From: Candidatus Omnitrophica bacterium UBA6215
Lineage (GTDB): Bacteria > Omnitrophota > Gorgyraeia > Pluralincolimonadales > Pluralincolimonadaceae
Assembly: GCA_002421665.1 (NCBI GenBank)
Contig: DISH01000006.1
Coordinates: forward strand, 217,784 to 281,783
Reading direction: 5' to 3'
Length of the DNA stretch: 64,000 nt
In this document: piece after piece, positions 2,899 through 22,602 of the stretch
Numbering within the stretch: position 1 is the stretch's first letter
Layout of the letters: every line of letters begins with the position of its first letter
The notes under the pieces: generated by a model
The model's input: only the letters and a program-made list of their open reading frames with translations
What the model was told of the DNA's origin: nothing
Databases searched by the model: none
Program-made: the position numbers and the translations under genes

Positions 2899-2904
2899 AA
2901 AAAA

Positions 2905-2981: not shown

Positions 2982-2997
2982 ATGAAAAGTATTAGAT

Positions 2998-3026
2998 ATG
3001 ATACTATTTCGGGGTATTTTTGGCAA
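2998..3026 (-). promoter_or_regulatory. Putative sigma70 promoter for the tRNA-Met/tRNA-Val transcript
   Basis: On the minus strand, TTGCCA, a 17-nt spacer and TATCAT sit about 16 nt upstream of the tRNA-Met 5' end, in the 67-nt gap between the rpoD stop and the tRNA. Confidence 0.4.
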
Positions 3027-3048
3027 GCCAAAAATTACTGCGGAGGCG

Positions 3049-4644: not shown

Positions 4645-4646
4645 AG

Positions 4647-7372: not shown

Positions 7373-7394
7373 TTCTTCCTCCTGTTTATTCGGA

Positions 7395-7919: not shown

Positions 7920-7939
7920 TCTCCTGATATTTGGAAGTA

Positions 7940-7968
7940 AGTATACCACATAGGGTTAGAATTGTCAA
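7940..7968 (-). promoter_or_regulatory. Putative sigma70 promoter of cvpA
   Basis: On the minus strand, TTGACA, a 17-nt spacer and TATACT (TGg-extended), 20 nt upstream of the MILPE ATG. Confidence 0.5.
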
Positions 7969-7983
7969 GGTACGGTAAAATAC

Positions 7984-8012
7984 TTGACTTTTTTGGCAAA
8001 AAAGAGTATATT
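7984..8012 (+). promoter_or_regulatory. Putative sigma70 promoter giving a leaderless transcript for the 8020 gene
   Basis: TTGACT (7984-7989), a 17-nt spacer and TATATT (8007-8012). The ATG at 8020 is 7 nt downstream of the -10 and there is no SD, which implies a leaderless mRNA. It is divergent from the cvpA promoter. Confidence 0.5.
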
Positions 8013-8019
8013 TTCCTAA

Positions 8020-9399
8020 ATGGCTAATACGGCTTGCAGCGAAAACCTTAAGGTCAAGAACGAGGTCGCGGACCGCGTTCTTCTTGTATTGAATTCCTAC
8101 GATAAACTTGAATTCTCCCCGGATCTAAGGCAATTCTTCAAAAAGAAATTAAGGGAAAAATACAACAAGGTAATAGAGGTCGAGCTTATAGGCATGGCGG
8201 AGCTCGGGCAGACCAGGGGAAACCTTACCGGTTACCTCAGGACGCACGAGCGTATAAAAAAACTCATGTCAAAGAAAAAACTCGATTCCTTCGATACTAT
8301 CATATACATACATGACGCCGGGTTGGCTACCAGGATCTTCCCCCTCTCTTATGAGTTTGGGACCCCGTCAAAGGCAAGCATAAGGTTCCCCGAAGGCAGG
8401 GCGCCGGACATGCTTCTTCCCTGCATAGCGAAAAGTATCCCGCTTTTAAAGAATACTGTGGTAATATTGCCGATAGACCAGTATTTCGACTATTCGGATA
8501 TAGATATAGGCGGACTCCTCAAGTCCCTCAACAAAAATACCGCTTCCATGCTCTTCACTCCCGTCCAGATAAACAGGGCTCTGGGAAGCCTGGGGACGGC
8601 TAAACTCGGAGAGGACAATTCTATTTCATGTTTCTACGAGAAGACCTTTGACGAAAAATTAATACCCAAATTCGGAAAGAATATGACGCTGGCAAACACT
8701 TTCCAGCTTTTTATGACCAAGGAAGGCATAGACAAGCTCCAAAATGCCCTTGATCTTTTCTGTTCCAAGGAAAAGAACAAGGACTTCATAATCCACTTGA
8801 ACGCAACTGAATGGAGCTTCAATAAACTTGTCTGCGAATCCCTTGTCCTCAACAAAAAAGCCCTCTCAAAGATACAGTTGTCCATGCGTGAATGCCTGCA
8901 GCAATATGAGATAAGCGTAGGCGGCGCGGTAGCCAAGGGATATTGGATAGACTGGGCGTCAAATATAATGACCTACCTGGAACTTTTGAGGAAACTTACG
9001 GCACAAATAGCCAAGCCGGACGAATACGGCAATTATTTCGTCAGGAGCAAGAAGATAAAGCCTTCGAGTAAACTGGAATCGTGCGTATTCATCGATTGCG
9101 ATACCATAGATCTTTTCGGAAGCTATAAGAATTGCATATTCATAGCTTGCGAATGGGTCAGGATAATGAATTGCTTCGAGGGCAACGGCTCCCTGTTCTA
9201 TGCACTCAAAAAGAAGAACTTCCTGCGCAAAGAGATGAATTACAAGCTGTTCGCAAATTTCTTAAGCGGAAGGCGCAATATAGAGTTCGAATGCGACATC
9301 TATGATGACTACAGGAACCTCTATAGCGCAATGAAGAAGGTCAGTGACGACTGGCTCTATTATCACGAAGTCCTGAAGGAAAGCTACAACACTAGGTAA
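8020..9399 (+). CDS. Hypothetical protein with divergent sugar-phosphate nucleotidyltransferase-like (GT-A) segment
   Basis: 459-aa ORF. Residues about 95-160 (HDAGLATRIFPLSYEFGTPSKASIRF...VVILPIDQYFDY) resemble the NTP_transferase signature GxGTRLxPLT...PK...GDhiy, but two of the three signature glycines are replaced. Convergent with the giant gene; the 3' ends overlap by 8 nt. Confidence 0.55.
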   Translation: MANTACSENLKVKNEVADRVLLVLNSYDKLEFSPDLRQFFKKKLREKYNKVIEVELIGMAELGQTRGNLTGYLRTHERIKKLMSKKKLDSFDTIIYIHDAGLATRIFPLSYEFGTPSKASIRFPEGRAPDMLLPCIAKSIPLLKNTVVILPIDQYFDYSDIDIGGLLKSLNKNTASMLFTPVQINRALGSLGTAKLGEDNSISCFYEKTFDEKLIPKFGKNMTLANTFQLFMTKEGIDKLQNALDLFCSKEKNKDFIIHLNATEWSFNKLVCESLVLNKKALSKIQLSMRECLQQYEISVGGAVAKGYWIDWASNIMTYLELLRKLTAQIAKPDEYGNYFVRSKKIKPSSKLESCVFIDCDTIDLFGSYKNCIFIACEWVRIMNCFEGNGSLFYALKKKNFLRKEMNYKLFANFLSGRRNIEFECDIYDDYRNLYSAMKKVSDDWLYYHEVLKESYNTR

Positions 9400-12300
9400 T
9401 CTTCTGGAAGTCTGTCGAGAACGCCTTTATACACCTGGACATATAGATCGTAACAGCTTTCTTGGCCCTTACCTCATCCTCATAAACCCTAACAAGCTTG
9501 GCTTTGTAGGCGCGATCCAGTTTCTTCCAGATATCTTCCATCGCCCTGACGTTCTCGTTAAGCCTGTTAAAATCATTTATGATCACGCTGCTGTAAAACT
9601 TGCCCAGGTAGACCCTGTCATCGGAGGTATGCTCTACGTTCAGGATGAGCATATAGGCCGCCTCCAACACCACAAAAACCCATAGCCAGTGAGAATAGCA
9701 CCTTGCGTTGAACTCTGAGGCAAAATAGAGCAGGAACGTCAACAGGATTGTAAATATGAACACGGCTTTTACCCTGCCCAGCACCCTGTTATACCTTATC
9801 TCTGCCTGCCTGTCGCTCTGTATGAGTTCTTGGTGCGAAAAATACATATCGTCCATAAGATCGGACTTCTGGACCGAAGAAGCAGCCGGGTAACCGGGCA
9901 GGTTATCCTTCAGCCATTTATTCAATCGAGTATAACCGCTGAGCTTCCATTTCAGCAGCGCCCAACCTATCAGGGAAGATATACCCAGAAGTGTATAGAC
10001 CACCGATTCAGGAGACGCGGTAGCCGGCCCCGAAGCTATGGAACTTATACCCAGGACAACACAAACAAACAGCAATGGTATTATCACGAAGTTCCAGAAC
10101 TTCGAGATCGTCAACTCCTTGAAGAGCGCTATAGGCTGTGAATGGGCAAAAAGCGGCATTATTATGAAAGACAACGTCGTGCTTATATACAACGCCGAGA
10201 ATATGAATAATGCTTTGACCGCCAACGACGAGAATATCAGGCCCCACATGACAAAACCCACTCCCGTGAAGACGAGAAGGACTACGGCATATATTATCTG
10301 CAGCTTGATCACGGACATCTTCCCTATATCCCCGTCAGGGACTACCTCGTCACGCCAGTTCTTAAGGTACGGTATGCCTATCTTGTTCCATTTGACCCCG
10401 GCGGTATACATCAGGGCGACTATGGCAAAAGGCAGGAACGGTATGAAGGGGCTAAGCCATAACGGCATCGACTTCGTCGCCACCGCCACATAAGCCAAAG
10501 GCAGGCCTATTATCGTGCTGAACATGGAGGCCTTCAGTATGTCCCTCTTCTCCCCCCAGATGATCTTAAGCGGTAAATGTCCGAGGTTCCACCCCTTCGG
10601 GCTTATTATGAATATAGCCTTGCCTTTAAGTCCGGCGAGGAACCCGAAGGCATACGCCGGTATGACCGACGCGTAGAAGAAATGATTCTTCGCAACCAGT
10701 CTTAAATATGCCGAGAAAGATTTCTTGAACCCAAAATGTTCAAGCAGGTATGCGATACCTGTTGCGGTTATCGATTGGTTGAAAAGCAGCCCTAAGATAC
10801 CGAATACTATAGGATACGGCACGGCCATGAAACCGTTTATACCCCAGCATATCATCAGCCACAAGTAAAGGAAATTGATTATGAACATGAGCGGCGTCTG
10901 GTAGAAGAATGAGAACCCGAACATAAGCATGAACTTCTGGGCTACGTGCAGGTTCTCGGAATTCAATATACCGGGGATGACCCTGCCTATGGCGGCATCG
11001 GAAGAACCCATGGCCCACTTTGTAAGCGGGACTAGGCTGGTAAAATATGAGGTCTCCCTGCCTTTACCGAAGAGCAGGTATTCCTTATGAGCGGTCCTGA
11101 AACCTTTCTTCCAAAGAGATGTCGCCAACAGTATATCTTCTGATATGTAGTCCTGCGGGAAACCTCCCGCAGCTGTTATCATATCGGTCCTTATGATCGC
11201 ACTATGGCCGTAAAAACCGCAGGCCTGGAATATGTTCAGGGTGCGCTGCGTAACGGATACGAACGTCTCCTCGTTGAAACCTATTGCCTGAGATATCCAT
11301 GAGTAATTTTTGTTGAATATATACTCCGCGAAGAGAACTTCGCCGAGAGCAGGGTCACTCCTGAATTCCGATAATGCCACCGGTATCTTGACGGCGTCCT
11401 CTACCCTGACAGAACAGTTGGCATCGAAGAAAAGTACGGTCTCGCCTTTTATGAAAGGCAGGGCCTGGTTAAGGCCGCTCGGCTTGCCTTTCTTAACGGG
11501 CGCTACAAAAGGTGCGGTCTCTATAAGTTCTATCCTGCCGGAAGTCTCATCATACCTGTGCAGGCCGCAGTCACTGCCCTTGGAATAGGTAACGGCCGTT
11601 TCGTTTTCCCCGGATGTGTAATCGGCATCGCTGGCAAACCAATAAACGTTGAGCTTCGGCATCTCTTTCATCAATCTTCTCAGGGCTATCCTGTCCGAAT
11701 CCTTGGTCGCGGGGCTGTGATATCCCTCATAGTTGAGCAATATCTGGACCTTCTCGGAAACCATGCGCTCTATCTCTCCATCGGAAGACCCCGGGTAGCA
11801 GATGCGGGCGTACATAGCGAAAGCGTCCCGTATCTTGTATACTTCTACGGCCGTCTTCTCAACACACTGGACGGTAAGATTAGCCCACTTGCGTATCTTT
11901 TCCCTGAGCTGTTCGGGCAACCCTTCCGGGAGCCTCTTAAGGCCGAATAACAACTTGAGTTGCTCCCGTGTAACAAATTGCCCCAGATCGGAACTGCCAA
12001 GCCTGTTGACGAATTCTTCCCACTGGGGCCTGTAAAAACCTATAAGGTGGTTTAGCCTGGTAACTTCGGCGCCCCTGTCGCAACCGTTGAGCTCGTCGAA
12101 AGTAAAGCTGACAGGTTCGTTAAAAGCGGTTATCATTGCCGTCAGCGAAGGCAGATCTGTCCAGGATTCCGCCTTTGGCATTTCCATGAGCCAGCTGTTA
12201 ATATAGACCCTTATCCTTTCCGAAGCTTCTTCGGCGCGTGGCGGCCTGTCAATTTTCGGAGTGGGATTCCCGGATGAATAGACAAGCGACTCCTTCTCTT

Positions 12301-15300
12301 TCCCGCTTATGACATAGTAATCGTGGAGTTCCTTTATCATTGCATTCCAATAGGATTTCCACGTCTCATCAGCGAGGCCGGAAGCCTTCCCCCCTGACGA
12401 CATCATTACATCCGAGAAACGCTGCCTCGATAACCCGAATTTCCTTCTCAACTGGCCCCAGGATATGACCTGCCCGACCCCCTCCCTCTTGCCCCGGTAA
12501 AAACCTATAAGGGCTATTATTATATAGAACAGGGAGAAGAAACTTGAGAGTATAAAAGTAAACGTAAGCAGCAGCGCGCTTAAGTTAATGAACAAACCCC
12601 AACCAGCGTTCACGAACGTAAGTTTGATTATTATCCTGACCGTCCAGATTATCACGAATATACTGAACAGGCCCCACAGGTACGATGCGGAAAAGAACAT
12701 AACCCAGAACAATCTGGTGGAGCGTCTTATCTCGCCGCTTTCCGCGCTTGCAAGGCAAGCCGGCCTGTAGTTGCCAAGGCTCCGTTTCATTAATAGCACT
12801 GTCAGCATTACACCGGCCAGGATCAAGAGGGTTATCTCTATGAACACGGCCAACACGTTCGGGGACAAACGCACGATCGGAGAAAGAATATCGACAAGGT
12901 GGACGGACAATTGCTCTATCCTCCCGGCGAACGGCAAGAGCTTCAAGGCTATAGCCGCTCCGCCGAGGATGACAACGGAAAATATCGGTACGTGAAACTC
13001 CCAGAACCTGCGCAAGTTATCTACGAATTGCGGTATGCCGGCCTTGTCCGGGAACGTCTTCATCCACGCATAGCTTTTATAAGACTTCGGGTCCGATGAG
13101 GGCTCCTTGCCGCCTTTTGTCTCCAGGAACAAAAGTTTCTGTTCCGCGGAAGCTCCCGTAAGTTTAGAGAAGGAAGGTATGAATCCCGGCCTCCTGCCCT
13201 CGAAAAGGTCGTTCATGTCGTCATAAGTGAATATATACTCCTTTATAAGGCCGAGTTTCTTATCATATCCCGGCCTCAAAACTTCTATGAATACCTGCAC
13301 ATCGCTTCGGATCTCTTTTAATACATCAGGCCCTTTGCCGGAACGCAGTATGCCAAGCGATTTATCAAACAGGTAATTCCTGAAACCCGGTACCGCCGCC
13401 CTGAATTCCACGGATTCGTCAAATATCAGGCGGAACAATACTACAAGCGCGAGTTCATCCGGCTTATTCCCAAAACCCGACAGCTTGATCCCGCTTCCGT
13501 TCTTGCCCGACCACTTCTCGAACTCCCTCGCCTCAACTGCAAACAGGTTCCCGAGAATTATCTCCTCGCGTCCTACCCTGTCGGCTATCCTCTTTACAAT
13601 GACATTTATACCGGCGGAATGCCTTGAAGGATCTGCGCCAAAATCGCGGAAACGTTCTTCCAGCAAAGGACGGAACGTTTCCATGACCGCGGCAAAAAGT
13701 ACGGACGTAGGCTTATTCCCTTCGTATACATCTATGCATGCTTTCTTGACTTCTTCAGGAAGGCTCGACCTTTCCAATAAGGCCCTGCTAAACGGCGCTA
13801 TGGCGCCTTTCGGCGGCACCTGCGCCTTTGCTTCATCCTCGGCGACCTTTATCCTGCGGGCCCTGCCTGCTTTCAGCCTCCGCCTGGATATATACCCGAA
13901 CATGAAGAGTGTGCCGGCAAATAATGCGGCAAAGAGGATAGGTTTCTGCCATCTTATGGTCTTCATGAGGTATACTGAACTGCTTTCTATATGTTCCTTC
14001 TTGTATTTATACACACCGTTGTCATCAAATTCGTAGTCCGACCTTATCCAGTGTTCGATATCGAACGGCCTGCGTTCGAGGAATGTCTGTGTCTGCCATC
14101 CGTTGCGATGGTAAACGCTGGCATCTCCGAGGAAAACCGCTACTATCTGAGTACCCGGTTTTGTGCCTTCCGGCTGGGTACCCGGTTTGAAATATCTTTC
14201 TATCTTTATGGGCCTTAGGTATGAATACGGGACAAGCGGATCATAATACTCCGTCTGCCTTCCCCCCTGTATCGGGAGTATGTTCATAAGCCTCAATATT
14301 ATGAAGCGGCGCTCGAGAACGATCAGCTGCCCGCTCAGGGAATGGACATCGTAAAAAGCGTAATCGGAATTCAAGACACCGTATTTGACGCCCCTTATAG
14401 GAGGTCCGTCAGGCAGCTTGAACGGTTTCACCTCAGGCTCATAAGGAACCCTGATCATCGGGTGGCTAAATACGCTGCGCGGATATTCGAGCGTTCCGGA
14501 GAAATATTTGATCTCTCCGACGCGCCCGCCTGGTTCTATGGTATGGTAACCGGGCAGCGTCCCGAACGGGGCTTTTTCCACATTATTCATCGCTTCATCA
14601 AGCGCCTTGCGTTTGATGAGCTTCCCGTACTCGGTCTTCAGTAACTCCCTGAGCTGGTCGACCTCCAGGCCTTCCTTGTACCATTCATAGATTACCGTAT
14701 CTTCCTTCTTGGCTATGGCACGGGTACGGTCTTCTCCCCGGTCATCCTTCCAGGATTCCAGCAGGGTATCCCTGCCGAATATGTTCTTCTTGAGCTTGAG
14801 CTTGCTTCCTTTATGCAATGTCGTCTCATCGCCGAGCATCACGAACTTGACGTTCACCAATTCCCTTCCAAGCACGTCATCGGGAATCATATAACTGACC
14901 GTTGTTATGGCTACGGTATTAGTGAAATGCGGGAACCCGTCTTCCCCGGTAACCATCCTGAATATCCTCTTCTTCATCTGAGGCAACAGGGTGTCGGCAT
15001 ATATGCCCAGAGGCTCCATTCTCTTTATATATTTGGGAGAAAGCACCGAATCGGCGCGGACAGAGTTATCGACATCGCTTATAGATACAAGTTCTCCCGC
15101 GAGATTGAACGTCAGGGTCTTTGCCGGTATTTCGGTCTCGGCTATCCAATCTACCGGGACCTCTAAGGTACCGCCGCGAACTATTAACCTCTGCCTGCCA
15201 AGGCTGTCTCCCGGTTCATAGAAAACGAAATAAGGTGTCTCTCCGGGGGCATTAGGGTCACCGGTAAGGTTGCTTGTTACCTCGTTCTCTTCCAGAATAA

Positions 15301-18300
15301 GGCTGTCGCTGACTCTTCCTACCTTCTCGGCACCGAGCCTGTTAAGTATAAGGACGGCCTGCCTCTCCCTTTCATCTTCGGGCAAAGACGTAAGCGACTT
15401 GGTCAGCGCTTCCTTGAAATTCATGATCTTCCCGGTTGTCTTGTAACGGCGCACCCACGCGAGGCCTTGGGTCAGATTCTCCAGGTTAGGAACTTCCTCC
15501 GATAAAGCCTTTCCGGGTGATTCAAGAAAGACTTCCTTGGTGACCTCCTGGTCGGGCCCGTATTTTACTATGGTTATTATGTTCTTGACTATCTGAGCGG
15601 ATATATCCCCTTCCGGAGTATAATATTCCATTTTCTTTGTGTACCGGGCCTTGCCATCCTCGAATATTATCCTCCCGTTCTCATCTTTGGCAAATACATG
15701 CACTTCCGAGACAAAATATTTCTTATCCGGCGTGTAACCTTTGAATATGCTCTCGGATAAGTCGGAAAACCACTCACCGCTCTCGTCAGTACGATAAGTA
15801 TGGCTGCCCACAACCTGAAGCGTGTCCTTGTCATACTCGATATCCGTCCTGATATCGGAAGTGACGACTTTTGTGAGCGGGTCTATTTGTATATTCTCGG
15901 AATATATTGTCTCGAGGTTACCGGCAATATCATAGACCTCCACATAAAGGACCCTCCCGGTAGCCTCATTGATCACCTTGAGCCAGACCCTGCCCGAAGC
16001 ATCGCGCAGATCTCGTCCGAATTCGTCCTTGCCCAGTATGGACTCATAGCTCCTTAGGGTGGATTCGGCCCTTTCTTTTGCCACCTCAAATTCGCCTAAC
16101 CTTTTTTCGGCTGCTTTTGCGCCATAATATATTACGTGGATAAACCCGTCGTCGTCATACCAGGCCAATTCGTTGGAAAGGCGGTCATACTGTTCGATCA
16201 GTTCGAGGCGGGTCTGCGCATCCTTCTCTTCCCTGACCCTTTTGAGCAGTTCAAGCAGCCTTTCCTTGAATTCTTTTGTCTCCGAAGCTATTACGTCATC
16301 GCCGAGGTATATCCATAGCGGCTGCGTAGGGGTAGGCCTGCTTCCGGTGAATTCCTCCCTGGGCTTTATTACCATGCCCTCAATAAGGCCCCTCTCGTAT
16401 TTCACGGCATTCAACTTCGAAGTCTCGCTCGTCCTCCAATTCGTGAGGTTGAACTTGGTACCCATGACTATTTCCTGGCCGCTCTTGACCGAGACGCCTC
16501 CCACCCTCAATCGCCTTGTCTCATCAAGCCCAAGAACCCTGGCGTAGTACATGCCGCGTTCCTGGGTAGCAAGCATACCCTTGTCGTCAGGAACCACACC
16601 GGCCGATATCAGGTCCGCTCTTTGCCAGTCCTGAGCGTTTATATACTTCTTGTATTCCTGTTCGGTAATAGGCACTTTAGAGACGAGGCCCGGCAGGTCC
16701 TCCACGGAATCATAATATTGAAGTATATTCATATCCGCGTCCACCTCGAGGGCGGTAAAATACCTGGCTATCAAATGGCCTTCGGGCAGATTTTTTGCGG
16801 ACTGGAACTGCTGTGCCGGGTTCTTAAGGTCTTCCCTGTTGGCCTCAGGCAAATCGTTCTCGGAAGAGAACTGCCTTACTATGTTGTAGTCGCCGTCTAT
16901 CTCAAAAGCATAATAAGGCTTATAATTACCGTCCAGGCGCAGGTTGTACTTCGGCGCTATCCTCCATTTGATGCCGGTCGAATCGTCGAAATAAGCATAT
17001 TCCGACTTGATCGCTTTGCTCAGGGGCTCCGGGAGATCCGAGAACTTCTTGTAGATTATCTTGAAACCACCGTCAACACCTATAACATCATAATCCCGTT
17101 TTTGCGTATCCAACACCCCGTCAAACCAGCAATTATAGCTCGTCATAAGGACCGCTATGGCCTTCTTCCTGGCTATCGTAGAATCCTTGAGGACCTGATC
17201 GTAAAGGACCTTATAATAAACTATGGGTTTCTTGAGGGCGGCATCCCTGATGGCTTCCTGCTGCGCGATAAGCTCCGCTTCGGATATCACTCTTTCCTGT
17301 TCCGGGATAACTATCGCCTTGGAGGGTTTTGTCACCTTGCCAGGTTCGTTCATCCATTTAGCGATATCCTTGAGCGAGTCGCGTAACGCGAATCCGTTGA
17401 GGTCAAACGGGTTAAACCCAGAAAGAGGGAATGACGCCCATGTGGCCGAGATGTCGGCATCCGCCTGCGGAGTAAGCCAGTTATCGAATGGGTAGCGCCT
17501 TATACCTTTTTCGGAAGCGTAAGGAAGCGACGCGGAAACATCCATCCTTGCGGCCATACGCCCCAGGTTATCGAGGTATAACTTTGCCGCATCGACAAAC
17601 TTTACTGCGGTTTCATTATCCCCCTTATCCCTTGCATGCTTGGCCATGACAAGATAAGCTAACGCAACCTGAGAAGAGAACTCCGGAGACAGCACAGGCT
17701 TTCTGCCCGGCCTGCCGAATTTATCGGTAAAGTCGAATCCTTCTACGCCTTTGACCTTTACCCCGCTAGGATGCAAATAATCTACTTTTACCCTTGCCCT
17801 TTCCAGGCTCTCAAGCAGCCTGCGGCTCGTGTGGATACCGCCGAATTTCACTCCAAACTCCGAATCCAGGACCTCGGGCCCCAGGATTATAATGGCAAGC
17901 GCGTTCGCATCGGTCGCATAAACATCATTTATCTCGTCCTTAGAAGTACCGGCTGTAAAATATCCTCCTCTTACGTTGTACACGCCGCTCGATACCATCC
18001 ATTTAAGGATATTGTCCATCGCATTCTTGTAAATACCCTTCCCGGTGATATCATAAAGCATGCCGAACAGGACGTAACAGTCCAGGTTCTCTTCTGTTGA
18101 CTTAGCATAATATTCCGCATTGCCCTGGAATGGATATTTCCTTATTCCCCCGTTATCCGCCTGGAGATTGATAAGGAACTCGGCACGGCGTTCAGCCGCG
18201 GAAAGCCATTTTTCATCGCCGTTCAATTGATATTCCCTTACGAAGCTTATTCCCCACCAGGCGTTGGGTCCTGCCGTTATGAGGGGATCTTCGCTCAAGC

Positions 18301-18757
18301 CGGTCCTTACGTCAAGGCCGTTGGGGATGTCCCTGGTCTCCCCTCTTTCCATCAACAACCCGGCAACTTTGGAAGAAAATTCGTACTGGCCGGCCATAAC
18401 CATATTCTGGTGGGCAAGAGCCTGCGGATACACATAAGACATCTCCGCAAAGGGGTTCTTCTCGCCTGACTTGGCTATCATTGTAGGCACAAGGCCCGTA
18501 TCGGGATTAGACCATTCGAGTATGAAAGTTGCCAGCTCGCCGGCATTTATTGGGCCATCCTTTTGCTTTGCATTATCCAGGGGATTCGCCGCGGTAACCG
18601 GTATCGCCTTTTTAGACCCATCCGGAGAAGATTCCCTGACGGACACCTTGAAGGCAGGCCTGTGGCATGAACGCATGGCAAGCAGTACCGCCAGCGCCGC
18701 TATCAATACTATAACTATAATTACCTTTTTGCCGTTTTTGGCCATCTCCGGTCTCAT
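9392..18757 (-). CDS. Giant 3121-aa multidomain envelope protein with a glycosidase-like ectodomain and a GT2-like processive glycosyltransferase core
   Basis: An uninterrupted 9.37 kb ORF. N-terminal signal anchor (KKVIIVIVLIAALAVLLA), then about 1650 aa predicted extracytoplasmic, including a six-hairpin glycosidase-like region (aa about 60-470). A TM helix follows at about aa 1695 and TM clusters at about 2050-2250 and about 2700-3121. Between the clusters is a GT-A region with DxD-like LFFDANCSV, a TED-like ISEDILLATSLW and QxxRW-like LVPLTKWAMG. Its ATG overlaps the stop of the upstream OEP gene (ATGA). Confidence 0.8.
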   Translation of the reverse strand: MRPEMAKNGKKVIIVIVLIAALAVLLAMRSCHRPAFKVSVRESSPDGSKKAIPVTAANPLDNAKQKDGPINAGELATFILEWSNPDTGLVPTMIAKSGEKNPFAEMSYVYPQALAHQNMVMAGQYEFSSKVAGLLMERGETRDIPNGLDVRTGLSEDPLITAGPNAWWGISFVREYQLNGDEKWLSAAERRAEFLINLQADNGGIRKYPFQGNAEYYAKSTEENLDCYVLFGMLYDITGKGIYKNAMDNILKWMVSSGVYNVRGGYFTAGTSKDEINDVYATDANALAIIILGPEVLDSEFGVKFGGIHTSRRLLESLERARVKVDYLHPSGVKVKGVEGFDFTDKFGRPGRKPVLSPEFSSQVALAYLVMAKHARDKGDNETAVKFVDAAKLYLDNLGRMAARMDVSASLPYASEKGIRRYPFDNWLTPQADADISATWASFPLSGFNPFDLNGFALRDSLKDIAKWMNEPGKVTKPSKAIVIPEQERVISEAELIAQQEAIRDAALKKPIVYYKVLYDQVLKDSTIARKKAIAVLMTSYNCWFDGVLDTQKRDYDVIGVDGGFKIIYKKFSDLPEPLSKAIKSEYAYFDDSTGIKWRIAPKYNLRLDGNYKPYYAFEIDGDYNIVRQFSSENDLPEANREDLKNPAQQFQSAKNLPEGHLIARYFTALEVDADMNILQYYDSVEDLPGLVSKVPITEQEYKKYINAQDWQRADLISAGVVPDDKGMLATQERGMYYARVLGLDETRRLRVGGVSVKSGQEIVMGTKFNLTNWRTSETSKLNAVKYERGLIEGMVIKPREEFTGSRPTPTQPLWIYLGDDVIASETKEFKERLLELLKRVREEKDAQTRLELIEQYDRLSNELAWYDDDGFIHVIYYGAKAAEKRLGEFEVAKERAESTLRSYESILGKDEFGRDLRDASGRVWLKVINEATGRVLYVEVYDIAGNLETIYSENIQIDPLTKVVTSDIRTDIEYDKDTLQVVGSHTYRTDESGEWFSDLSESIFKGYTPDKKYFVSEVHVFAKDENGRIIFEDGKARYTKKMEYYTPEGDISAQIVKNIITIVKYGPDQEVTKEVFLESPGKALSEEVPNLENLTQGLAWVRRYKTTGKIMNFKEALTKSLTSLPEDERERQAVLILNRLGAEKVGRVSDSLILEENEVTSNLTGDPNAPGETPYFVFYEPGDSLGRQRLIVRGGTLEVPVDWIAETEIPAKTLTFNLAGELVSISDVDNSVRADSVLSPKYIKRMEPLGIYADTLLPQMKKRIFRMVTGEDGFPHFTNTVAITTVSYMIPDDVLGRELVNVKFVMLGDETTLHKGSKLKLKKNIFGRDTLLESWKDDRGEDRTRAIAKKEDTVIYEWYKEGLEVDQLRELLKTEYGKLIKRKALDEAMNNVEKAPFGTLPGYHTIEPGGRVGEIKYFSGTLEYPRSVFSHPMIRVPYEPEVKPFKLPDGPPIRGVKYGVLNSDYAFYDVHSLSGQLIVLERRFIILRLMNILPIQGGRQTEYYDPLVPYSYLRPIKIERYFKPGTQPEGTKPGTQIVAVFLGDASVYHRNGWQTQTFLERRPFDIEHWIRSDYEFDDNGVYKYKKEHIESSSVYLMKTIRWQKPILFAALFAGTLFMFGYISRRRLKAGRARRIKVAEDEAKAQVPPKGAIAPFSRALLERSSLPEEVKKACIDVYEGNKPTSVLFAAVMETFRPLLEERFRDFGADPSRHSAGINVIVKRIADRVGREEIILGNLFAVEAREFEKWSGKNGSGIKLSGFGNKPDELALVVLFRLIFDESVEFRAAVPGFRNYLFDKSLGILRSGKGPDVLKEIRSDVQVFIEVLRPGYDKKLGLIKEYIFTYDDMNDLFEGRRPGFIPSFSKLTGASAEQKLLFLETKGGKEPSSDPKSYKSYAWMKTFPDKAGIPQFVDNLRRFWEFHVPIFSVVILGGAAIALKLLPFAGRIEQLSVHLVDILSPIVRLSPNVLAVFIEITLLILAGVMLTVLLMKRSLGNYRPACLASAESGEIRRSTRLFWVMFFSASYLWGLFSIFVIIWTVRIIIKLTFVNAGWGLFINLSALLLTFTFILSSFFSLFYIIIALIGFYRGKREGVGQVISWGQLRRKFGLSRQRFSDVMMSSGGKASGLADETWKSYWNAMIKELHDYYVISGKEKESLVYSSGNPTPKIDRPPRAEEASERIRVYINSWLMEMPKAESWTDLPSLTAMITAFNEPVSFTFDELNGCDRGAEVTRLNHLIGFYRPQWEEFVNRLGSSDLGQFVTREQLKLLFGLKRLPEGLPEQLREKIRKWANLTVQCVEKTAVEVYKIRDAFAMYARICYPGSSDGEIERMVSEKVQILLNYEGYHSPATKDSDRIALRRLMKEMPKLNVYWFASDADYTSGENETAVTYSKGSDCGLHRYDETSGRIELIETAPFVAPVKKGKPSGLNQALPFIKGETVLFFDANCSVRVEDAVKIPVALSEFRSDPALGEVLFAEYIFNKNYSWISQAIGFNEETFVSVTQRTLNIFQACGFYGHSAIIRTDMITAAGGFPQDYISEDILLATSLWKKGFRTAHKEYLLFGKGRETSYFTSLVPLTKWAMGSSDAAIGRVIPGILNSENLHVAQKFMLMFGFSFFYQTPLMFIINFLYLWLMICWGINGFMAVPYPIVFGILGLLFNQSITATGIAYLLEHFGFKKSFSAYLRLVAKNHFFYASVIPAYAFGFLAGLKGKAIFIISPKGWNLGHLPLKIIWGEKRDILKASMFSTIIGLPLAYVAVATKSMPLWLSPFIPFLPFAIVALMYTAGVKWNKIGIPYLKNWRDEVVPDGDIGKMSVIKLQIIYAVVLLVFTGVGFVMWGLIFSSLAVKALFIFSALYISTTLSFIIMPLFAHSQPIALFKELTISKFWNFVIIPLLFVCVVLGISSIASGPATASPESVVYTLLGISSLIGWALLKWKLSGYTRLNKWLKDNLPGYPAASSVQKSDLMDDMYFSHQELIQSDRQAEIRYNRVLGRVKAVFIFTILLTFLLYFASEFNARCYSHWLWVFVVLEAAYMLILNVEHTSDDRVYLGKFYSSVIINDFNRLNENVRAMEDIWKKLDRAYKAKLVRVYEDEVRAKKAVTIYMSRCIKAFSTDFQKIT

Positions 18758-21700
18758 TTTGACACGTAAGTTATATATGAATCAATACCCTTGGCTGTAT
18801 ACCTCATAAGGTACCGGTCAAGCTCGTTCATAAGGCTGACCATGTGGTAATAAGCCTGTATATTCTTTATTTTGTTGTTCAACAGGGTCTCTTTTATCTC
18901 CCTGATCCTTACGACGGACATGTCCCCGGTTGCTTCTTCAGCGCGCATGAGTTCGTTCATCCGTTCCTCGAGTACGGATACGTTCTTTTTAAAATTCTCG
19001 TAGTCCAAAACGGCCATCTTATAATCGGTGAAAATCCTTAAAGCATTCTGGAGTACCTCAGACATGTACGACTTCGACTTGAGGGCCGTTATCTTCTCCT
19101 GTAACGCTGCCACTCTCGCCTTGGTGGCCGTGGTAGGGTCGAATATCTTATCCATGGAATTAAGGGATATGAACTCCGAGAGAGAATTATAGCGGGAGAA
19201 TATGGCTTCATTCCTTGTTACTGATCCCATGAAGTCGGTAAGATAAGTATACTCGAGATTGAAAGTCAGGGACTTGATCTGCTTTGATATGGCCTCGGTA
19301 TCAAGCCTGGTCATCTTTATATTGTATTCGATCCGTTTCAGCAGGTCTTCGCGCAGCGGCACCTCCAGATCCTTCTTCGCCAGCCCAAGTTCTGCAGCAA
19401 GCCTTTCTTTTATATCACAGTCATCGGCCAACGTCACTCTCTTGGACAATTCGTCATAGACCTCGATATTCATTATGGAGAACCTGGGGTCAAGCCCTCC
19501 GACTACTATACCGAGATTGCTCCTGTAGCCCTCGCAATATTTACGGGCATCTATTGTTTTTTGCAGAAGGCTTTCTACGAATTCCTTTTGTTTGAGATAA
19601 TCGACATGGGCTACCGCTCCCGCCGTGTAAAGCTCCTCGACCCCTGCAAGAACCGCTTTCTGTTTCTCGCATTCATCGTTTACCTGCGAATATTCCGCGA
19701 GCGAAGCCAGGTAATCGCAATACGCATCCACCACTTTTACGCTGAGGTCGAACTTGGCCTGCTCGAGGTCTTTCCTGGCAAGTTCAACCCTCAATTCCTG
19801 TTTCTTTACCATAAGCTTGTTCACAAGATCCACTTCCGCGGAAACGACCGCCCCGGTCGTCTGGACGGTCTTTTTCTTCTGGGAACCCCTGTTATCCATC
19901 ACATAATAACCTTTGCTTACGTTGCCGTTGACCCTTATCATCTTATAATAGTTCAGGGACTCTTCCTCAAGTAAGAGGGCTTCCTCGTATTTTTTGACCT
20001 CGCGGCTGTTACGCAAAGCGATATCCAGGGCCTCCTGAAGACCCGACAGAAGTATCTTATCGCTTCCTTCCTGCCGGGCGTCTTTCTCCACAAAGAGGAT
20101 CTCCCTTGCGCTTGCGTAGTAATTATCGAACACTGACTCTTCATAGGTCAGCTGGGAGACAAGGTAATCAAGGCGGGCATCCGCCCATTGACGTTTTGTC
20201 CTTCCCCCGAACTTGTAAAGTTCATCCGTTATCTTGAACTGGTTCCCGGAATTCTCCATCTTGTTACGCAGATCATTGAGAAGGTCGTTCGAGGCGTCGT
20301 ATGCGGATTTTACGGCAAACTTCTCTTTCTCGTAAGAATCCATGCTCTTCGCGTACTCTATCTCCGATTTTATACGGTCCCTGGCGGCTTCAGACATCGC
20401 TATCTTCTCGGCATGGTCTCCCCAAGGTATAGAGACGCTGAAGGAAAGCTGCTTGTCCGGGTCTTCCCAGCCGTCATAATCTGAACCTTTGGTCTCATAC
20501 CTGACCTGCCATATTGCCCCTTCATAGGCCAAGGCCTTGGCCTCGCCCGCCCTCTTCCTCTCAACGGTATTGAGCGCCTGCTTTACGGAAGCCATGCCGT
20601 CATAATAAGGCTCTACCTTCTCTTTCAGCATCATCTTGAAATCGGACAACCCCTCTTCGCTTCCGAACAGGGCAGGTTCCTTGACCGTTATGGTCTCATT
20701 AAGCGGTATCCCCGTCCATCTCTTGAGATTATACTCGGCTACCGCCAGGGAAAATTCGACATTCGAGATCTCCTTGTCCACTTCAAGCCGCTGGAGGACA
20801 AGAGGAAGTATGTCAGAGTTGGTATACTTGGGGTTTTTCCCCTTCATATCCTCGAGCATATCGTTTATAAGGTCGTTTTTGAGTCGTTTTATCTCGTCAA
20901 GCTTTTTAAGGGTATTACCGAAACGCAGGACGAGGAGATAGTTCCTTATTACCTCATCGGCAACTACGCTCTGTAGGGCCCTGCCCCCGCATTCGGCCTC
21001 CTTGAGCCCTGCTCTGGCGGCTTTTACCGCCGCTCCGACCTTATTGTCGAGTATGCGGCCTTCCAGGGCAAGGAATGCCCTTGTATTCTTAGAAGGAGTC
21101 CCGTTTATGTTCACGTTCTCCAGGACCGCCGCTCCGTAAAGTTTCGGAAGATAACCGGCCTTCTCCGCGCCAATGCGCACCTTTTCTATTTTTATCCTCT
21201 TCTCTGCTATCTGCCTTGCCGTAAGAAGGTCCGCCCTCTCTCCCCTTGAGATCAGGTCCTCGAGCCCCATATCCTGGTAGGTCGGGCTGGTATTCTCCGG
21301 CTTGAGCTCTATCCCGTTGAGATTCGATAAAGTTACCGTATAATCGCTCAGGGCCTGCTGCAAAGCGTATTTGGCCTTGTATAGGTTATCGCTCATCCTT
21401 ATTATCTCGATGACCGGGAGCGAAAGCTTCTCTCTTAGCATCCTCAGGGTGTCTTCCGTCTTCGCTATGTACTCCCTATAGTTATCTATCTTATCCCTGA
21501 GGTCGGTTATTTTCGCGTTCCCTTTGAGGTCGTCGCACTCGAGGTCCTCCGAAGCCTTCAATACCTCAAGCCTGGCTATTTGAGATTCCAGGCTCTTCGT
21601 ATGGTTCAGGCCTTCGGAATGGCCGAAATCCGTAACGAATAACTCCAACTGGGTATCGGTTATTACCTTCCTTTCGAACCTTGTGCCTTTGCCTTCCGCC

Positions 21701-22602
21701 AGGCCGAGTATAGTCGTTGAGGTCAGTTTCAGGCGGGGATTATTGCCTATATGGGCCGCTACGGAAGCTTCCTCGCTCCTCTTCTTGATTATATCAAGCG
21801 TATAGCTTTTGGGTCTTATCTCCGCCTTTTCGGCGAAGACCGGGTCCCTGTTCACGTTACCGGGAAGCTCCTGGACAACTATATCAAGGTCATCGTTGTC
21901 CTCCAACCCCAGCAATCCCCTGAGATCCCGCCTTGTATTAATGAGGGTGTTCAGAGCCCCTATCTTCCTCTCGTTGACTATGCCCAGATAATTCTTCAAT
22001 TCGAGTTTTTCCGTCTCCGTATATTCAGGACTGTCTTTTATAATGCCTATTACCTTCTCGACGGTCTCGACGTTATCGCAACTCATGCGATAATTCTCCT
22101 GCGCCGCGGCAACCGCATAATAAACCGATATAAGTTTCCTTGTTTTCCATGTGACAGCCTGTTTGACCTCAAGCAGGCTTGCCTCATAGTTCTTCCTGTC
22201 TTTGGAGATATAATTAAGGCTGTCGGAAGTGATAGACATCTCTATCACCAATTGCTGTTCCGAGAAAAGGTCTGTCTGCTGGTCGAGGTCACTGAAGAGG
22301 TCGAACGGTTTTACCACGCTTCCCGCTACGCTGATCTTAGGAAGGAAGGTGTCCATCTTCCTTGCCTTTATCCCAAGCACGGCGGCATCGGAGGAAAGTT
22401 TGGCTATCTGGATATCCCTGTCAACTTCATAAAGCTTGTTAAGGGCTGACTCAAGCGAAAGATTACTGCAATCTATTCCTGCCTGTAATTCCTCAGCAGA
22501 ATAAGGTTCTTCCGCACCGCCCGGACAGGATACGAGCATTACCGATACTGTCAACGCGGTAAAAACTACTGCTATAATTTTGATCGATCTTCGGCTAAGC
22601 AT
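18754..22602 (-). CDS. Outer-membrane efflux protein (TolC/OprM/NodT family) lipoprotein, 1282 aa, about three OEP units long
   Basis: Lipobox LVSC in the signal peptide and an OEP-family N-terminal signature LSLESALNKLYEVDRDIQIAKLSSDAAVLGIKARKMDTFLPKISVAG. OEP-like half-repeat starts recur at about aa 245, 445, 640, 830 and 1030. Highly coiled-coil. SD AAAGGGG upstream. Confidence 0.75.
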   Translation of the reverse strand: MLSRRSIKIIAVVFTALTVSVMLVSCPGGAEEPYSAEELQAGIDCSNLSLESALNKLYEVDRDIQIAKLSSDAAVLGIKARKMDTFLPKISVAGSVVKPFDLFSDLDQQTDLFSEQQLVIEMSITSDSLNYISKDRKNYEASLLEVKQAVTWKTRKLISVYYAVAAAQENYRMSCDNVETVEKVIGIIKDSPEYTETEKLELKNYLGIVNERKIGALNTLINTRRDLRGLLGLEDNDDLDIVVQELPGNVNRDPVFAEKAEIRPKSYTLDIIKKRSEEASVAAHIGNNPRLKLTSTTILGLAEGKGTRFERKVITDTQLELFVTDFGHSEGLNHTKSLESQIARLEVLKASEDLECDDLKGNAKITDLRDKIDNYREYIAKTEDTLRMLREKLSLPVIEIIRMSDNLYKAKYALQQALSDYTVTLSNLNGIELKPENTSPTYQDMGLEDLISRGERADLLTARQIAEKRIKIEKVRIGAEKAGYLPKLYGAAVLENVNINGTPSKNTRAFLALEGRILDNKVGAAVKAARAGLKEAECGGRALQSVVADEVIRNYLLVLRFGNTLKKLDEIKRLKNDLINDMLEDMKGKNPKYTNSDILPLVLQRLEVDKEISNVEFSLAVAEYNLKRWTGIPLNETITVKEPALFGSEEGLSDFKMMLKEKVEPYYDGMASVKQALNTVERKRAGEAKALAYEGAIWQVRYETKGSDYDGWEDPDKQLSFSVSIPWGDHAEKIAMSEAARDRIKSEIEYAKSMDSYEKEKFAVKSAYDASNDLLNDLRNKMENSGNQFKITDELYKFGGRTKRQWADARLDYLVSQLTYEESVFDNYYASAREILFVEKDARQEGSDKILLSGLQEALDIALRNSREVKKYEEALLLEEESLNYYKMIRVNGNVSKGYYVMDNRGSQKKKTVQTTGAVVSAEVDLVNKLMVKKQELRVELARKDLEQAKFDLSVKVVDAYCDYLASLAEYSQVNDECEKQKAVLAGVEELYTAGAVAHVDYLKQKEFVESLLQKTIDARKYCEGYRSNLGIVVGGLDPRFSIMNIEVYDELSKRVTLADDCDIKERLAAELGLAKKDLEVPLREDLLKRIEYNIKMTRLDTEAISKQIKSLTFNLEYTYLTDFMGSVTRNEAIFSRYNSLSEFISLNSMDKIFDPTTATKARVAALQEKITALKSKSYMSEVLQNALRIFTDYKMAVLDYENFKKNVSVLEERMNELMRAEEATGDMSVVRIREIKETLLNNKIKNIQAYYHMVSLMNELDRYLMRYTAKGIDSYITYVSK

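What the first reader, a model, noticed from the sequence alone, without database searches (positions are those of the whole stretch)
9392..18757. 3121-aa giant envelope protein combining a glycosidase-like ectodomain with a GT2-like processive synthase: a single-polypeptide exopolysaccharide machine?
The 9.37 kb ORF appears to fuse several normally separate components:
- an N-terminal signal anchor;
- ~1650 extracytoplasmic residues, including an (alpha/alpha)6 glycoside-hydrolase-like region;
- a long uncharacterised beta-rich stretch;
- a polytopic membrane synthase core whose cytoplasmic loop carries GT2-type D/DxD/(T)ED/Q(x)xRW-like motifs (ISEDILLATSLW..., LVPLTKWAMG), between two TM clusters.

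In cellulose or curdlan systems these roles are separate proteins: BcsA-type synthase, BcsB-type periplasmic subunit and BcsZ-type hydrolase. The fusion is therefore unusual.

Its start is translationally coupled (ATGA) to the stop of a TolC-like outer-membrane factor, suggesting a built-in export route.

Its size places it among rare giant bacterial genes, as reported for some uncultivated lineages such as Omnitrophota (lineage guess only).
Basis: partly seen in the sequence, partly recalled or inferred. Interest (0 to 1): 0.8.

Follow-up and report, generated by a model that had tools for sequence, protein, structure and literature searches.

The report
Bacterial FKS-like glucan synthase fused to ectodomain
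A real, conserved 3,121-residue inner-membrane protein of uncultivated Omnitrophota joins a large periplasmic domain to a sugar-polymer synthase whose closest relatives are the fungal and plant beta-1,3-glucan synthases (FKS1, callose synthase), an enzyme family generally treated as eukaryotic.

Summary
The 9,366-nt ORF (9392-18757, minus strand, 3,121 aa) is real. Fourteen full-length relatives (43-96% identity) occur in independent Omnitrophota assemblies.

The synthase is not BcsA/GT2-like:
- Its best match is Pfam Glucan_synthase (GT48): 94 bits against a cutoff of 37.
- Yeast FKS1 is the best solved relative.
- It has the FKS-specific DAN motif and 12 of 15 mutationally tested FKS1 active-site residues.

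The GH76-like region is probably an (alpha/alpha)6 toroid without the GH76 catalytic Asp pair. The other ~1,100 ectodomain residues are orphan.

In other bacteria the ectodomain (1,661 aa) and synthase (1,447 aa) are adjacent separate genes, so this is a true fusion.

The conserved operon also encodes:
- a triple-length, six-repeat TolC-like lipoprotein;
- a secreted MORN-like repeat protein;
- a dCache-HAMP-GGDEF cyclase.

Most likely this is a synthase-dependent beta-glucan secretion machine built on a GT48-type core. The product and the c-di-GMP receptor are untested. GT48-like modules are widespread in giant Omnitrophota proteins.

The parts
9392..18757 (-). Whole giant ORF, 3,121 aa
   Evidence: 14 full-length homologues; uninterrupted in 9 GTDB species loci
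18668..18736 (-). N-terminal signal-anchor TM helix (aa ~8-30)
   Evidence: hydropathy
17318..18658 (-). GH76-like, probable (alpha/alpha)6 toroid domain (aa 34-480). It has the invariant GPNAWWG and KSTEEN motifs and lacks the GH76 Asp-Asp pair.
   Evidence: Pfam GH76 27.9 bits against a cutoff of 25.9, over aa 164-272 only. Profile against PDB: alpha-1,6-mannanases at E 6e-8, plus weaker GH88, isomerase and PL10 toroids. Alignment A4. Catalytic-pair mapping through PMC4321491.
13946..17317 (-). Orphan, mostly beta-rich periplasmic region (aa 481-1604)
   Evidence: No Pfam hit, no PDB hit, no BcsB similarity. The AlphaFold model is poor, pLDDT 46. The region is conserved at 45% identity to the most distant members.
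13883..13945 (-). Second TM helix (aa 1605-1625). It corresponds to the C-terminal anchor of the separate ectodomain protein in split loci.
13013..13882 (-). Cytoplasmic N-domain of the synthase module (aa 1626-1915). No family match.
   Evidence: Pfam gives nothing. It aligns to the N-terminus of the stand-alone synthase P0021.
12485..13012 (-). TM cluster A (aa 1916-2091), about four long helices in the model
10943..12484 (-). Cytoplasmic GT-A glycosyltransferase domain, GT48/FKS-like (aa 2092-2605)
   Evidence: PF02364 94.2 bits. FKS1 E 6e-11 against BcsA 4e-7. pLDDT 80-93. Foldseek ranks Fks1/2 first.
11417..11425 (-). DAN motif D2445-A-N2447 (= FKS1 D1102-A-N1104)
11135..11140 (-). ED motif E2540-D2541 (= FKS1 E1221-D1222, the finger-helix catalytic base position)
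11057..11065 (-). K2565-G-R2567 (= FKS1 K1246/R1248)
9629..10942 (-). TM cluster B (aa 2606-3043), eight or more helices. It contains K2580-W2581 in the interface-helix motif LTKWAMGS.
9392..9628 (-). Cytoplasmic helical C-tail (aa 3044-3121) plus stop codon. No PilZ domain.
18754..22602 (-). Upstream 1,282-aa lipoprotein with six OEP repeats (three TolC-protomer equivalents). Its stop overlaps the giant's start (ATGA).
   Evidence: It lies directly upstream of the synthase in every related locus.
22925..24217 (-). 430-aa secreted protein with about 17 tandem 23-aa MORN_2-like repeats
   Evidence: A 337-424-aa unannotated gene occupies the same position in L001, L005, L006 and L002.
24199..25776 (-). 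dCache-HAMP-GGDEF diguanylate cyclase (RESD I-site, GGEEL)
   Evidence: It is conserved next to the system in L001, L005, L006 and L002.
8020..9399 (+). Convergent 459-aa conserved cytoplasmic protein overlapping the giant's 3' end. Its function is unknown.
   Evidence: 52% identical to its counterpart in the split locus L009. The L009 copy gives only a weak NTP_transferase hint, E 0.0015. No PDB match.

Best explanation
The ORF encodes the inner-membrane core of a synthase-dependent polysaccharide secretion system. Its catalytic module is a bacterial relative of the eukaryotic GT48 beta-1,3-glucan synthases (FKS1, callose synthase).

Shown:
- The C-terminal ~1,500 residues form a complete FKS-type unit: cytoplasmic N-domain, TM cluster, GT-A domain with DAN / ED / K-x-R motifs, and a second TM cluster.
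- The N-terminal ~1,600 residues are a periplasmic partner protein with a TM helix at each end. It is a separate gene in some bacteria and is fused here.
- The operon also carries a six-repeat TolC-like lipoprotein, a secreted repeat protein and a diguanylate cyclase.

Inferred mechanism:
1. A nucleotide sugar, most likely UDP-glucose, binds at E2214, K2425 and D2445/N2447.
2. D2541 on the finger helix acts as base for processive inverting transfer.
3. The chain is pushed through a channel formed by the helices flanking the GT domain, as in FKS1 and BcsA.
4. It emerges beneath the tethered ectodomain. The toroid cleft and beta-rich body of that domain receive, guide or remodel it, a role analogous to BcsB, whose topology it shares.
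5. The polymer leaves through the single-chain TolC-like duct.
6. Output is tuned by c-di-GMP from the co-operonic cyclase, through a receptor not yet identified.

The most likely product is a beta-1,3-linked glucan.
For: Match to GT48:
- PF02364 scores 94.2 bits against a cutoff of 37.2 over aa 2174-2644.
- The best solved relatives are FKS1/GSC2 at E 6e-11, with BcsA at 4e-7.
- DAN, ED and K-G-R are invariant in the family and across 18 diverse bacterial cores.
- 12 of 15 FKS1 residues shown by mutagenesis to be essential are conserved. The residues come from PMC10499315 and were mapped through the alignment.
- DAN is described as FKS-specific, in contrast to the DxD of GT2 (PMC12715860).
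- In the AlphaFold model the GT domain has pLDDT 80-93. Foldseek ranks 1-13 are Fks1/Fks2 over 1,115-1,332 aligned columns at E 2e-20 to 2e-14, with BcsA next at E 4e-8.

Fusion and topology:
- The split arrangement is in L008/L009 and L020.
- The ectodomain gene of the split locus is 47% identical to the window's N-terminus and has TM helices at both ends.

Operon:
- The four-gene operon with overlapping genes is seen in L006 and is conserved in L001, L005 and L002/3.
- The neighbour has six OEP repeats.
- The cyclase has an I-site and GGEEL.

Context hints for a beta-glucan:
- GH16 lies 5 kb upstream in L004.
- GH94 lies in L009.
- A PGM and a PilZ protein lie in L002.
Against: - No activity, product or donor has been tested. 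Identity to FKS1 is only about 15-25%, and linkage specificity cannot be read from sequence.
- PF02364 matches only profile positions 4-502 of 819; the TM half is not matched by sequence.
- Three tested FKS1 residues differ: D1080 is K, K1172 is N, N1220 is S.
- The interface-helix motif LTKWAMGS keeps the Trp of the GT2 QxxRW motif, so the enzyme is intermediate between GT2 and GT48.
- No c-di-GMP receptor domain was found in the giant.
- The ectodomain's function is pure inference: the model was poor and nothing homologous was found.
- TolC-type ducts are not the usual outer-membrane exit for synthase-dependent polysaccharides.
Confidence: 0.72

Rival explanations
1. One reading: a GT2 BcsA/CrdS-type cellulose or curdlan synthase fused to BcsB-like and BcsZ-like parts.
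For: - Glyco_trans_2_3 scores 34 bits, above its cutoff.
- The LTKWAMGS motif resembles QxxRW.
- A c-di-GMP cyclase lies in the operon.
Against: - GT48 scores far higher: 94 against 34 bits, and E 8e-27 against 3e-8.
- TIGR03030 CelA scores 27 bits against a cutoff of 699.
- The motif is DAN, not DxD, and Q and R of QxxRW are replaced.
- No PilZ domain is present.
- The ectodomain shows no similarity to BcsB.
- The GH76-like region is unrelated to GH8 BcsZ and lacks the GH76 catalytic pair.
- A large cytoplasmic N-domain and a TM cluster precede the GT domain, as in FKS1.
Confidence: 0.1
2. The synthase makes an envelope-retained or periplasmic glycan, or a prey- or host-attachment structure, rather than a secreted exopolysaccharide. 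Under this reading the ectodomain is an enzyme (transglycosylase or hydrolase) that uses the invariant E222-E223 pair to attach or trim the polymer. The TolC-like protein serves another cargo.
For: - Omnitrophota are reported as ultra-small, host-dependent or predatory (PMC10066038 abstract; 10.1101/2023.11.21.568195).
- GT48-like modules sit in many 5,000-7,900-aa Omnitrophota proteins.
- An invariant consecutive carboxylate pair lies in the toroid domain, KSTEEN.
- Fungal GH76 Dfg5-type proteins are described as transferases acting on wall glucan (PMC12295086 abstract).
- An MFP plus ABC transporter lies next to the system in L006.
Against: - The TolC-like gene is translationally coupled here and is directly upstream of the synthase in every locus examined, including the split one. 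That argues for a shared pathway.
- No evidence bears on localisation of the product.
- The MFP/ABC pair is not conserved across loci.
Confidence: 0.15
3. The giant ORF is an artefact: an assembly chimera, or a read-through of two genes created by a sequencing error.
For: The two halves are separate genes in some genomes. No reads are available to map.
Against: - The same fused frame of 3,035-3,136 aa occurs in 14 protein clusters from NCBI, JGI, ENA and Logan assemblies.
- It also occurs in 9 GTDB species representatives.
- Conservation runs across the junction, and composition is uniform.
Confidence: 0.02

Closest known systems
Fungal FKS1/FKS2 and plant or protist callose synthases (CAZy GT48, Pfam PF02364)
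   Same: - GT-A domain with DAN, ED and K-x-R motifs, and 12 of 15 tested active-site residues.
- Order of parts: cytoplasmic N-domain, TM cluster, GT domain, TM cluster.
- Best sequence and Foldseek match.
   Different: - Bacterial, at about 15-25% identity.
- Only the first ~500 of 819 Pfam positions match.
- The motifs are FYGHS rather than HYGHPDF, and K-W rather than K-I in the interface helix.
- There is no Rho1 context.
- It is fused to a 1,600-aa periplasmic domain and sits in an operon with a TolC-like duct and a GGDEF cyclase.
- It belongs to a bacterial branch (type I) separate from the branch nearest to eukaryotes.
Bacterial cellulose synthase BcsA-BcsB with BcsC/BcsZ, and c-di-GMP control
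   Same: - A processive membrane GT-A synthase with a channel.
- A large periplasmic partner anchored by a C-terminal TM helix next to the synthase.
- A dedicated outer-membrane exit.
- c-di-GMP signalling genes in the locus.
- From my own knowledge, fused BcsA-BcsB exists in some acetic acid bacteria.
   Different: - The catalytic family differs (GT48-like, DAN).
- The fusion order is partner first, then synthase.
- No BcsB sequence similarity and no PilZ domain.
- The exit is a TolC-like alpha/beta duct rather than a BcsC TPR plus 16-strand barrel.
Curdlan synthase CrdS (bacterial beta-1,3-glucan synthase, GT2)
   Same: If the product is beta-1,3-glucan, this is the known bacterial route to the same polymer.
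   Different: CrdS is a ~650-aa GT2 enzyme related to cellulose synthases (established knowledge; PMC6821405 abstract). The present protein is GT48-like and five times longer.
Omnitrophota giant proteins ('Archaeovorins', very long multi-domain membrane proteins)
   Same: Same phylum and the same habit of very long multi-domain membrane proteins. Related GT48-like modules occur in 5,000-7,900-aa Omnitrophota proteins.
   Different: - At 3,121 aa it is below the size class those papers treat.
- It has a simple two-part architecture.
- The papers held here list GT1, GT5 and other domains but never glucan synthase or GT48.
TolC/OprM outer-membrane factors (for the neighbouring gene)
   Same: OEP repeats and an N-terminal lipobox like NodT/OprM-type factors.
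   Different: It has six repeats in one 1,251-1,370-aa chain, where the usual form is two repeats per protomer of a trimer. It is paired with a glycan synthase rather than an efflux pump.

Membership tests
GT48 (FKS1 / callose synthase; Pfam PF02364 Glucan_synthase) | Passes the curated Pfam threshold for PF02364 | tested here: met
   94.2 bits against a cutoff of 37.2, E 8e-27, aa 2174-2644. Only profile positions 4-502 of 819 are covered.
GT48 (FKS1 / callose synthase; Pfam PF02364 Glucan_synthase) | DAN motif in place of the metal-binding DxD of GT2 | tested here: met
   FFD2445-A-N2447 aligns to FKS1 D1102-A-N1104. It is invariant in 15 family members, and D and N are invariant in 18 diverse bacterial cores. 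The motif is described in PMC10499315 and PMC12715860.
GT48 (FKS1 / callose synthase; Pfam PF02364 Glucan_synthase) | FKS1 active-site residues shown essential by mutagenesis (E851, D1080, K1082, D1102, N1104, E1155, K1172, E1173, H1195, N1220, E1221, D1222, K1246, R1248, K1261) | tested here: met
   12 of 15 are conserved: E2214, K2425, D2445, N2447, E2478, E2496, H2518, E2540, D2541, K2565, R2567, K2580. Three differ: K2423, N2495, S2539. The mapping was done by hand from the phmmer alignment and the residue list.
GT48 (FKS1 / callose synthase; Pfam PF02364 Glucan_synthase) | Overall FKS architecture and fold: GT-A domain between two TM clusters, superposable on Fks1 | tested here: inconclusive
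   [not shown]
GT48 (FKS1 / callose synthase; Pfam PF02364 Glucan_synthase) | UDP-glucose-dependent synthesis of beta-1,3-glucan | not testable with these tools
   This needs a biochemical assay.
GT2 processive synthases (BcsA / CesA / CrdS type) | DxD metal-binding motif and Q(Q/R)xRW motif | tested here: not met
   DAN replaces DxD. The motif PLTKW keeps only the W, and has K where R is expected.
GT2 processive synthases (BcsA / CesA / CrdS type) | Passes the curated model for cellulose synthase catalytic subunit (TIGR03030), with a C-terminal PilZ domain | tested here: not met
   27.4 bits against a cutoff of 699. No PilZ hit in Pfam.
GH76 alpha-1,6-mannanase / Dfg5 family | Pfam PF03663 above threshold across the catalytic domain | tested here: inconclusive
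   27.9 bits against a cutoff of 25.9, covering profile positions 88-204 of 366 only. The profile against PDB gives E 6e-8 over 88 residues, with weaker hits to other (alpha/alpha)6 toroid families.
GH76 alpha-1,6-mannanase / Dfg5 family | Consecutive catalytic carboxylates three to four residues before the conserved Trp (D124-D125 in BcGH76; D143-E144...W147 in BT2949) | tested here: not met
   The corresponding positions are the invariant G163-P164 in GPNAWWG. This comes from ungapped extension of the alignment and the numbering in PMC4321491. It is an inference, not a structural superposition.
BcsB (cellulose synthase periplasmic subunit) | Sequence homology to BcsB | tested here: not met
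   hhalign of the ectodomain profile against E. coli BcsB gives probability 0.8%. No BcsB Pfam hit. Only the topology is shared: a periplasmic body with a C-terminal TM anchor.
TolC / outer-membrane factor family (neighbouring gene 18754-22602) | OEP repeats (PF02321), normally two per protomer | tested here: met
   Each third of the protein has two OEP stretches and passes the cutoff on its own: 32, 36 and 40 bits against 22. That makes six repeats in one chain. Similarity between the thirds is weak (hhalign T1-T2 E 0.0018).
Synthase-dependent exopolysaccharide secretion systems (Bcs, Pel, Pga, Alg type) | Inner-membrane processive synthase, periplasmic partner, outer-membrane exit and c-di-GMP receptor encoded together | tested here: inconclusive
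   The synthase, partner, outer-membrane protein and diguanylate cyclase are co-encoded and syntenic. No c-di-GMP receptor was identified. The outer-membrane component is TolC-like, not a TPR-porin.

The most novel reading that the evidence does not exclude
The window protein belongs to a large, previously undescribed prokaryotic radiation of GT48-like synthases, centred on Omnitrophota: 660 cluster representatives, many inside 5,000-7,900-aa proteins. This radiation would be the source of the eukaryotic beta-1,3-glucan synthases.

In a BcsA-rooted NJ tree all eukaryotic sequences form one clade. These include chytrids, oomycetes, plants and Cyanophora. Their clade is nested next to one bacterial branch (type II). 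The window's clade lies on the other bacterial branch and keeps GT2-like features such as the interface-helix Trp. That would make it a living intermediate between cellulose-synthase-type GT2 enzymes and FKS/callose synthases.
Probability: 0.3. Interest if true: 0.9.

Novelty: new variant of a known kind. Interest (0 to 1): 0.72.

Why it matters
- **Taxonomic reach of GT48.** GT48 enzymes make the main wall glucan of fungi, where they are the echinocandin and ibrexafungerp target, and callose in plants. They are treated as eukaryotic, and published GT48 trees held here are midpoint-rooted without prokaryotic outgroups. No paper in the held library links glucan synthase or GT48 with Omnitrophota or with prokaryotes.
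- **Tractable relatives.** A conserved bacterial relative, plus stand-alone ~1,450-aa versions, would offer smaller and possibly more tractable systems for FKS-type catalysis and translocation.
- **Origin of the eukaryotic enzymes.** It would supply an outgroup for asking where they came from.
- **A new way to build a secretion machine.** It shows a bacterial polysaccharide system assembled differently: a GT48-like core, a covalently fused periplasmic partner and a single-chain TolC-like duct.
- **Annotation.** These proteins are now labelled 'GH76 family protein' or 'GT2 family protein', which is misleading.

Tried and rejected
1. AlphaFold of the ectodomain, aa 480-1604, with a 7-sequence alignment gave mean pLDDT 46 and pTM 0.28. 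It was too poor for a fold search, so none was run.
2. A profile of that region against PDB sequences found nothing. hhalign against E. coli BcsB found nothing.
3. The cytoplasmic N-domain and the C-tail gave no credible Pfam hit.
4. The 459-aa neighbour has no Pfam hit and no PDB hit with a 4-sequence profile. One homologue gives NTP_transferase at E 0.0015, below the cutoff. I keep this only as a hint.
5. The third homologous-protein search, with 18 diverse cores, returned mostly short fragments and added little.
6. The afdb50 fold library was unavailable.
8. hhalign between the thirds of the TolC-like protein gave only weak similarity. The six-repeat claim rests on Pfam.
9. P0024 is binned as a Njordarchaeales (Asgard) archaeon but sits on a 2.9-kb contig carrying only this gene. 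I do not use it as evidence for archaeal occurrence.
10. The phylum labels 'Planctomycetia', 'Spirochaetes' and 'Elusimicrobia' in record titles are submitters' names and were not verified.

Full report
**Observation**

The window holds an ATG-to-stop ORF at 9392..18757 on the minus strand, 3,121 aa. Its start overlaps the stop of the upstream gene (18754..22602) in an ATGA. Composition is even across the region.

Hydropathy gives a helix at aa 5-33, a second at 1605-1625, and clusters at 1918-2088 and 2609-3042. The segment after the second helix starts RRRLKAGRARRIK, which fits a cytoplasmic location.

**Reality of the ORF**

- A search of 5.8 billion proteins found 14 full-length relatives of 3,035-3,136 aa (43-96% identity). 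They come from NCBI, JGI, ENA and Logan assemblies, and those that carry names are Candidatus Omnitrophota MAGs.
- A scan of GTDB species representatives gave 19 loci. In nine of them the frame runs uninterrupted for 1,837-1,936 aa upstream of the synthase module.
- All regions are conserved. Identity to the four most distant members is 45% for the orphan ectodomain and 55% for the GT domain.
- An assembly or frameshift artefact is therefore excluded for practical purposes, although reads could not be mapped.

**What the synthase is**

Sequence evidence:
- Pfam's best hit is PF02364 Glucan_synthase, the GT48 family of FKS1 and callose synthase. It scores 94.2 bits against a cutoff of 37.2 over aa 2174-2644. 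Glyco_trans_2_3 scores 34 bits.
- NCBIfam's cellulose synthase model reaches 27 bits against a cutoff of 699.
- Against all PDB sequences the best relatives are yeast FKS1/GSC2 at E 6e-11 (aa 2170-2593 against FKS1 807-1274). BcsA follows at 4e-7.

Active-site mapping:
- The alignment places FFD2445-A-N2447 on the FKS1 DAN motif, E2540-D2541 on E1221-D1222, and K2565/R2567 on K1246/R1248.
- The FKS1 structure paper lists 15 residues whose mutation abolishes function (PMC10499315). Mapped through, twelve are conserved here. Three differ: D1080 is K, K1172 is N, N1220 is S.
- DAN is described as a metal-independent peculiarity of Fks1, in contrast to the DxD of GT2 (PMC12715860).
- The family also keeps LTKWAMGS where FKS1 has TTKIGAGMG and GT2 enzymes have QxxRW. 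It therefore retains the GT2 tryptophan.

Structure prediction:
- An AlphaFold model of aa 1900-3060 from a 21-sequence alignment has mean pLDDT 68 and pTM 0.63. The GT domain reaches pLDDT 80-93.
- Foldseek against the PDB puts 13 Fks1/Fks2 chains first, at E 2e-20 to 2e-14, TMq 0.36-0.50 and 1,115-1,332 aligned columns. BcsA follows at E 4e-8, then hyaluronan, chitin and plant cellulose synthases.
- The processive membrane GT-A synthase fold is thus well supported. The preference for FKS over BcsA rests on sequence and Foldseek.

**The ectodomain**

- Residues 34-480 give a marginal GH76 hit of 27.9 bits against 25.9, over 117 of 366 profile positions.
- A family profile finds alpha-1,6-mannanases at E 6e-8 over 88 residues. 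It also finds weaker hits to GH88, sugar isomerases and PL10, all of them (alpha/alpha)6 toroids. The fold assignment is reasonable.
- GH76 enzymes have consecutive catalytic carboxylates three to four residues before a conserved Trp: D143-E144...W147 in BT2949 and D124-D125 in BcGH76 (PMC4321491). The equivalent positions here are the invariant G163-P164 of GPNAWWG. The canonical GH76 catalytic pair is absent.
- The family has its own invariant E222-E223-N224, whose role is unknown.
- Residues 481-1604 have no Pfam, PDB or BcsB similarity, and their AlphaFold model was unusable.

**Fusion**

- A profile of the synthase module found stand-alone proteins of 1,447-1,547 aa: P0019, P0021 and P0022.
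- In the P0021 locus, on a 1.99-Mb contig, the gene order is as follows:
  1. a 1,321-aa OEP protein;
  2. a 1,661-aa GH76-like protein;
  3. the 1,447-aa synthase;
  4. a convergent 447-aa gene.
- The 1,661-aa protein is 47% identical to the window's N-terminus. It has TM helices at both ends, which is the topology of BcsB.
- The Omnitrophota gene is therefore a head-to-tail fusion of a periplasmic partner and its synthase.

**Operon**

- In every related locus a 1,251-1,370-aa OEP protein lies directly upstream.
- In the window it has a lipobox (LVSC). Each third of the protein passes the Pfam OEP cutoff on its own with two stretches, at 32, 36 and 40 bits. That gives six repeats, the content of a whole TolC trimer in one chain. 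Similarity between the thirds is weak.
- Upstream of it lie a secreted protein of about 17 MORN_2-like repeats and a dCache-HAMP-GGDEF cyclase with an RESD I-site and GGEEL.
- In L006 the four genes overlap one another.
- The convergent 459-aa gene is 52% identical to its counterpart in the split locus. Its function remains unknown.
- Context hints for glucan metabolism are weak: GH16 in L004, GH94 in L009, and a PGM and a PilZ protein in L002.

**Wider family**

- An exhaustive profile search of 1.84 billion representatives found 660 proteins at E 1e-3 or better, and 109 at 1e-30 or better. Many are 5,000-7,900 aa. The named top hits are Omnitrophota.
- Motifs separate two bacterial types:
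  - the window's type: FFDANxSVR, FYGHS, SEDxxLA;
  - a second type: DINQDFY, HYGHPD, NEDIFGGY. This one resembles eukaryotic FKS/CalS.
- I built an NJ tree from 210 columns and 65 sequences, rooted on E. coli BcsA. Eukaryotic sequences formed one clade in 87 of 100 bootstraps. Their names were checked and include chytrids, oomycetes and Cyanophora.
- That clade grouped with bacterial type II in 55 of 100 bootstraps. The window's clade lay on the other bacterial branch.
- This result is suggestive only.

**Literature**

- No paper in the held library links glucan synthase, GT48 or PF02364 with Omnitrophota or prokaryotes.
- The two papers on giant Omnitrophota proteins do not mention it.
- I cannot exclude reports outside this library, or entries in CAZy.

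**Verdict**

This is a new variant of a known kind: a synthase-dependent glycan secretion system whose core is GT48/FKS-like rather than GT2. It is fused to its periplasmic partner and paired with a single-chain TolC-like duct. The product (beta-1,3-glucan is the likeliest), the role of the ectodomain and the c-di-GMP receptor are all inferred.

Noticed in passing
window 18754-22602 (-): A 1,282-aa lipoprotein in which each third independently passes the Pfam OEP cutoff. That gives six repeats, equal to a whole TolC trimer in one polypeptide. Relatives are 1,251-1,370 aa, and the gene always lies directly upstream of the synthase.
   Followed up: partly
window 22925-24217 (-): A 430-aa protein with a signal peptide and about 17 tandem 23-aa MORN_2-like repeats (G.xF.KGT.v.FyEsGkLqyAtL). 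A gene of similar size sits between the cyclase and the TolC-like gene in related loci.
   Followed up: partly
window 8020-9399 (+): A 459-aa convergent gene that overlaps the giant's 3' end by 8 nt. It is conserved, at 52% identity, beside the split version of the system. It contains IHDAGLATRIFPLS, which is reminiscent of sugar-phosphate nucleotidyltransferase signatures, but the only support is one sub-threshold Pfam hint.
   Followed up: partly
proteins P0027, P0033, P0034, P0035, P0049, P0106, P0110, P0015 (not in the window): GT48-like synthase modules are embedded in Omnitrophota proteins of 5,000-7,900 aa. P0015 also carries a Nudix box. The giant-gene papers held here do not list this domain.
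   Followed up: partly
L010 (P0024), contig JBQSHT010000227.1: A close relative of the synthase core, about 53% identical, lies on a 2.9-kb contig binned as Candidatus Njordarchaeales (Asgard archaea). The contig carries only this gene, so the binning cannot be checked.
   Followed up: no
L004 3673-4590; L009 17357-23372; L002 22214-26686: Glucan-related neighbours appear in some related loci: GH16 (laminarinase type) in L004; GH35/42 and GH94 phosphorylase in L009; phosphoglucomutase and a 444-aa PilZ protein in L002. None is conserved across loci.
   Followed up: no
[not shown]
   Followed up: no
window 1-8000 and 25800-30300: The flanking genes are in the same order as in Omnitrophota MAG loci L001 and L005. 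On one side these are sigma-70, DnaG primase, a NIF3-like gene and a colicin V-like gene; on the other, ETF alpha/beta and an acyl-CoA dehydrogenase. This supports the lineage assignment. They are ordinary housekeeping genes.
   Followed up: partly
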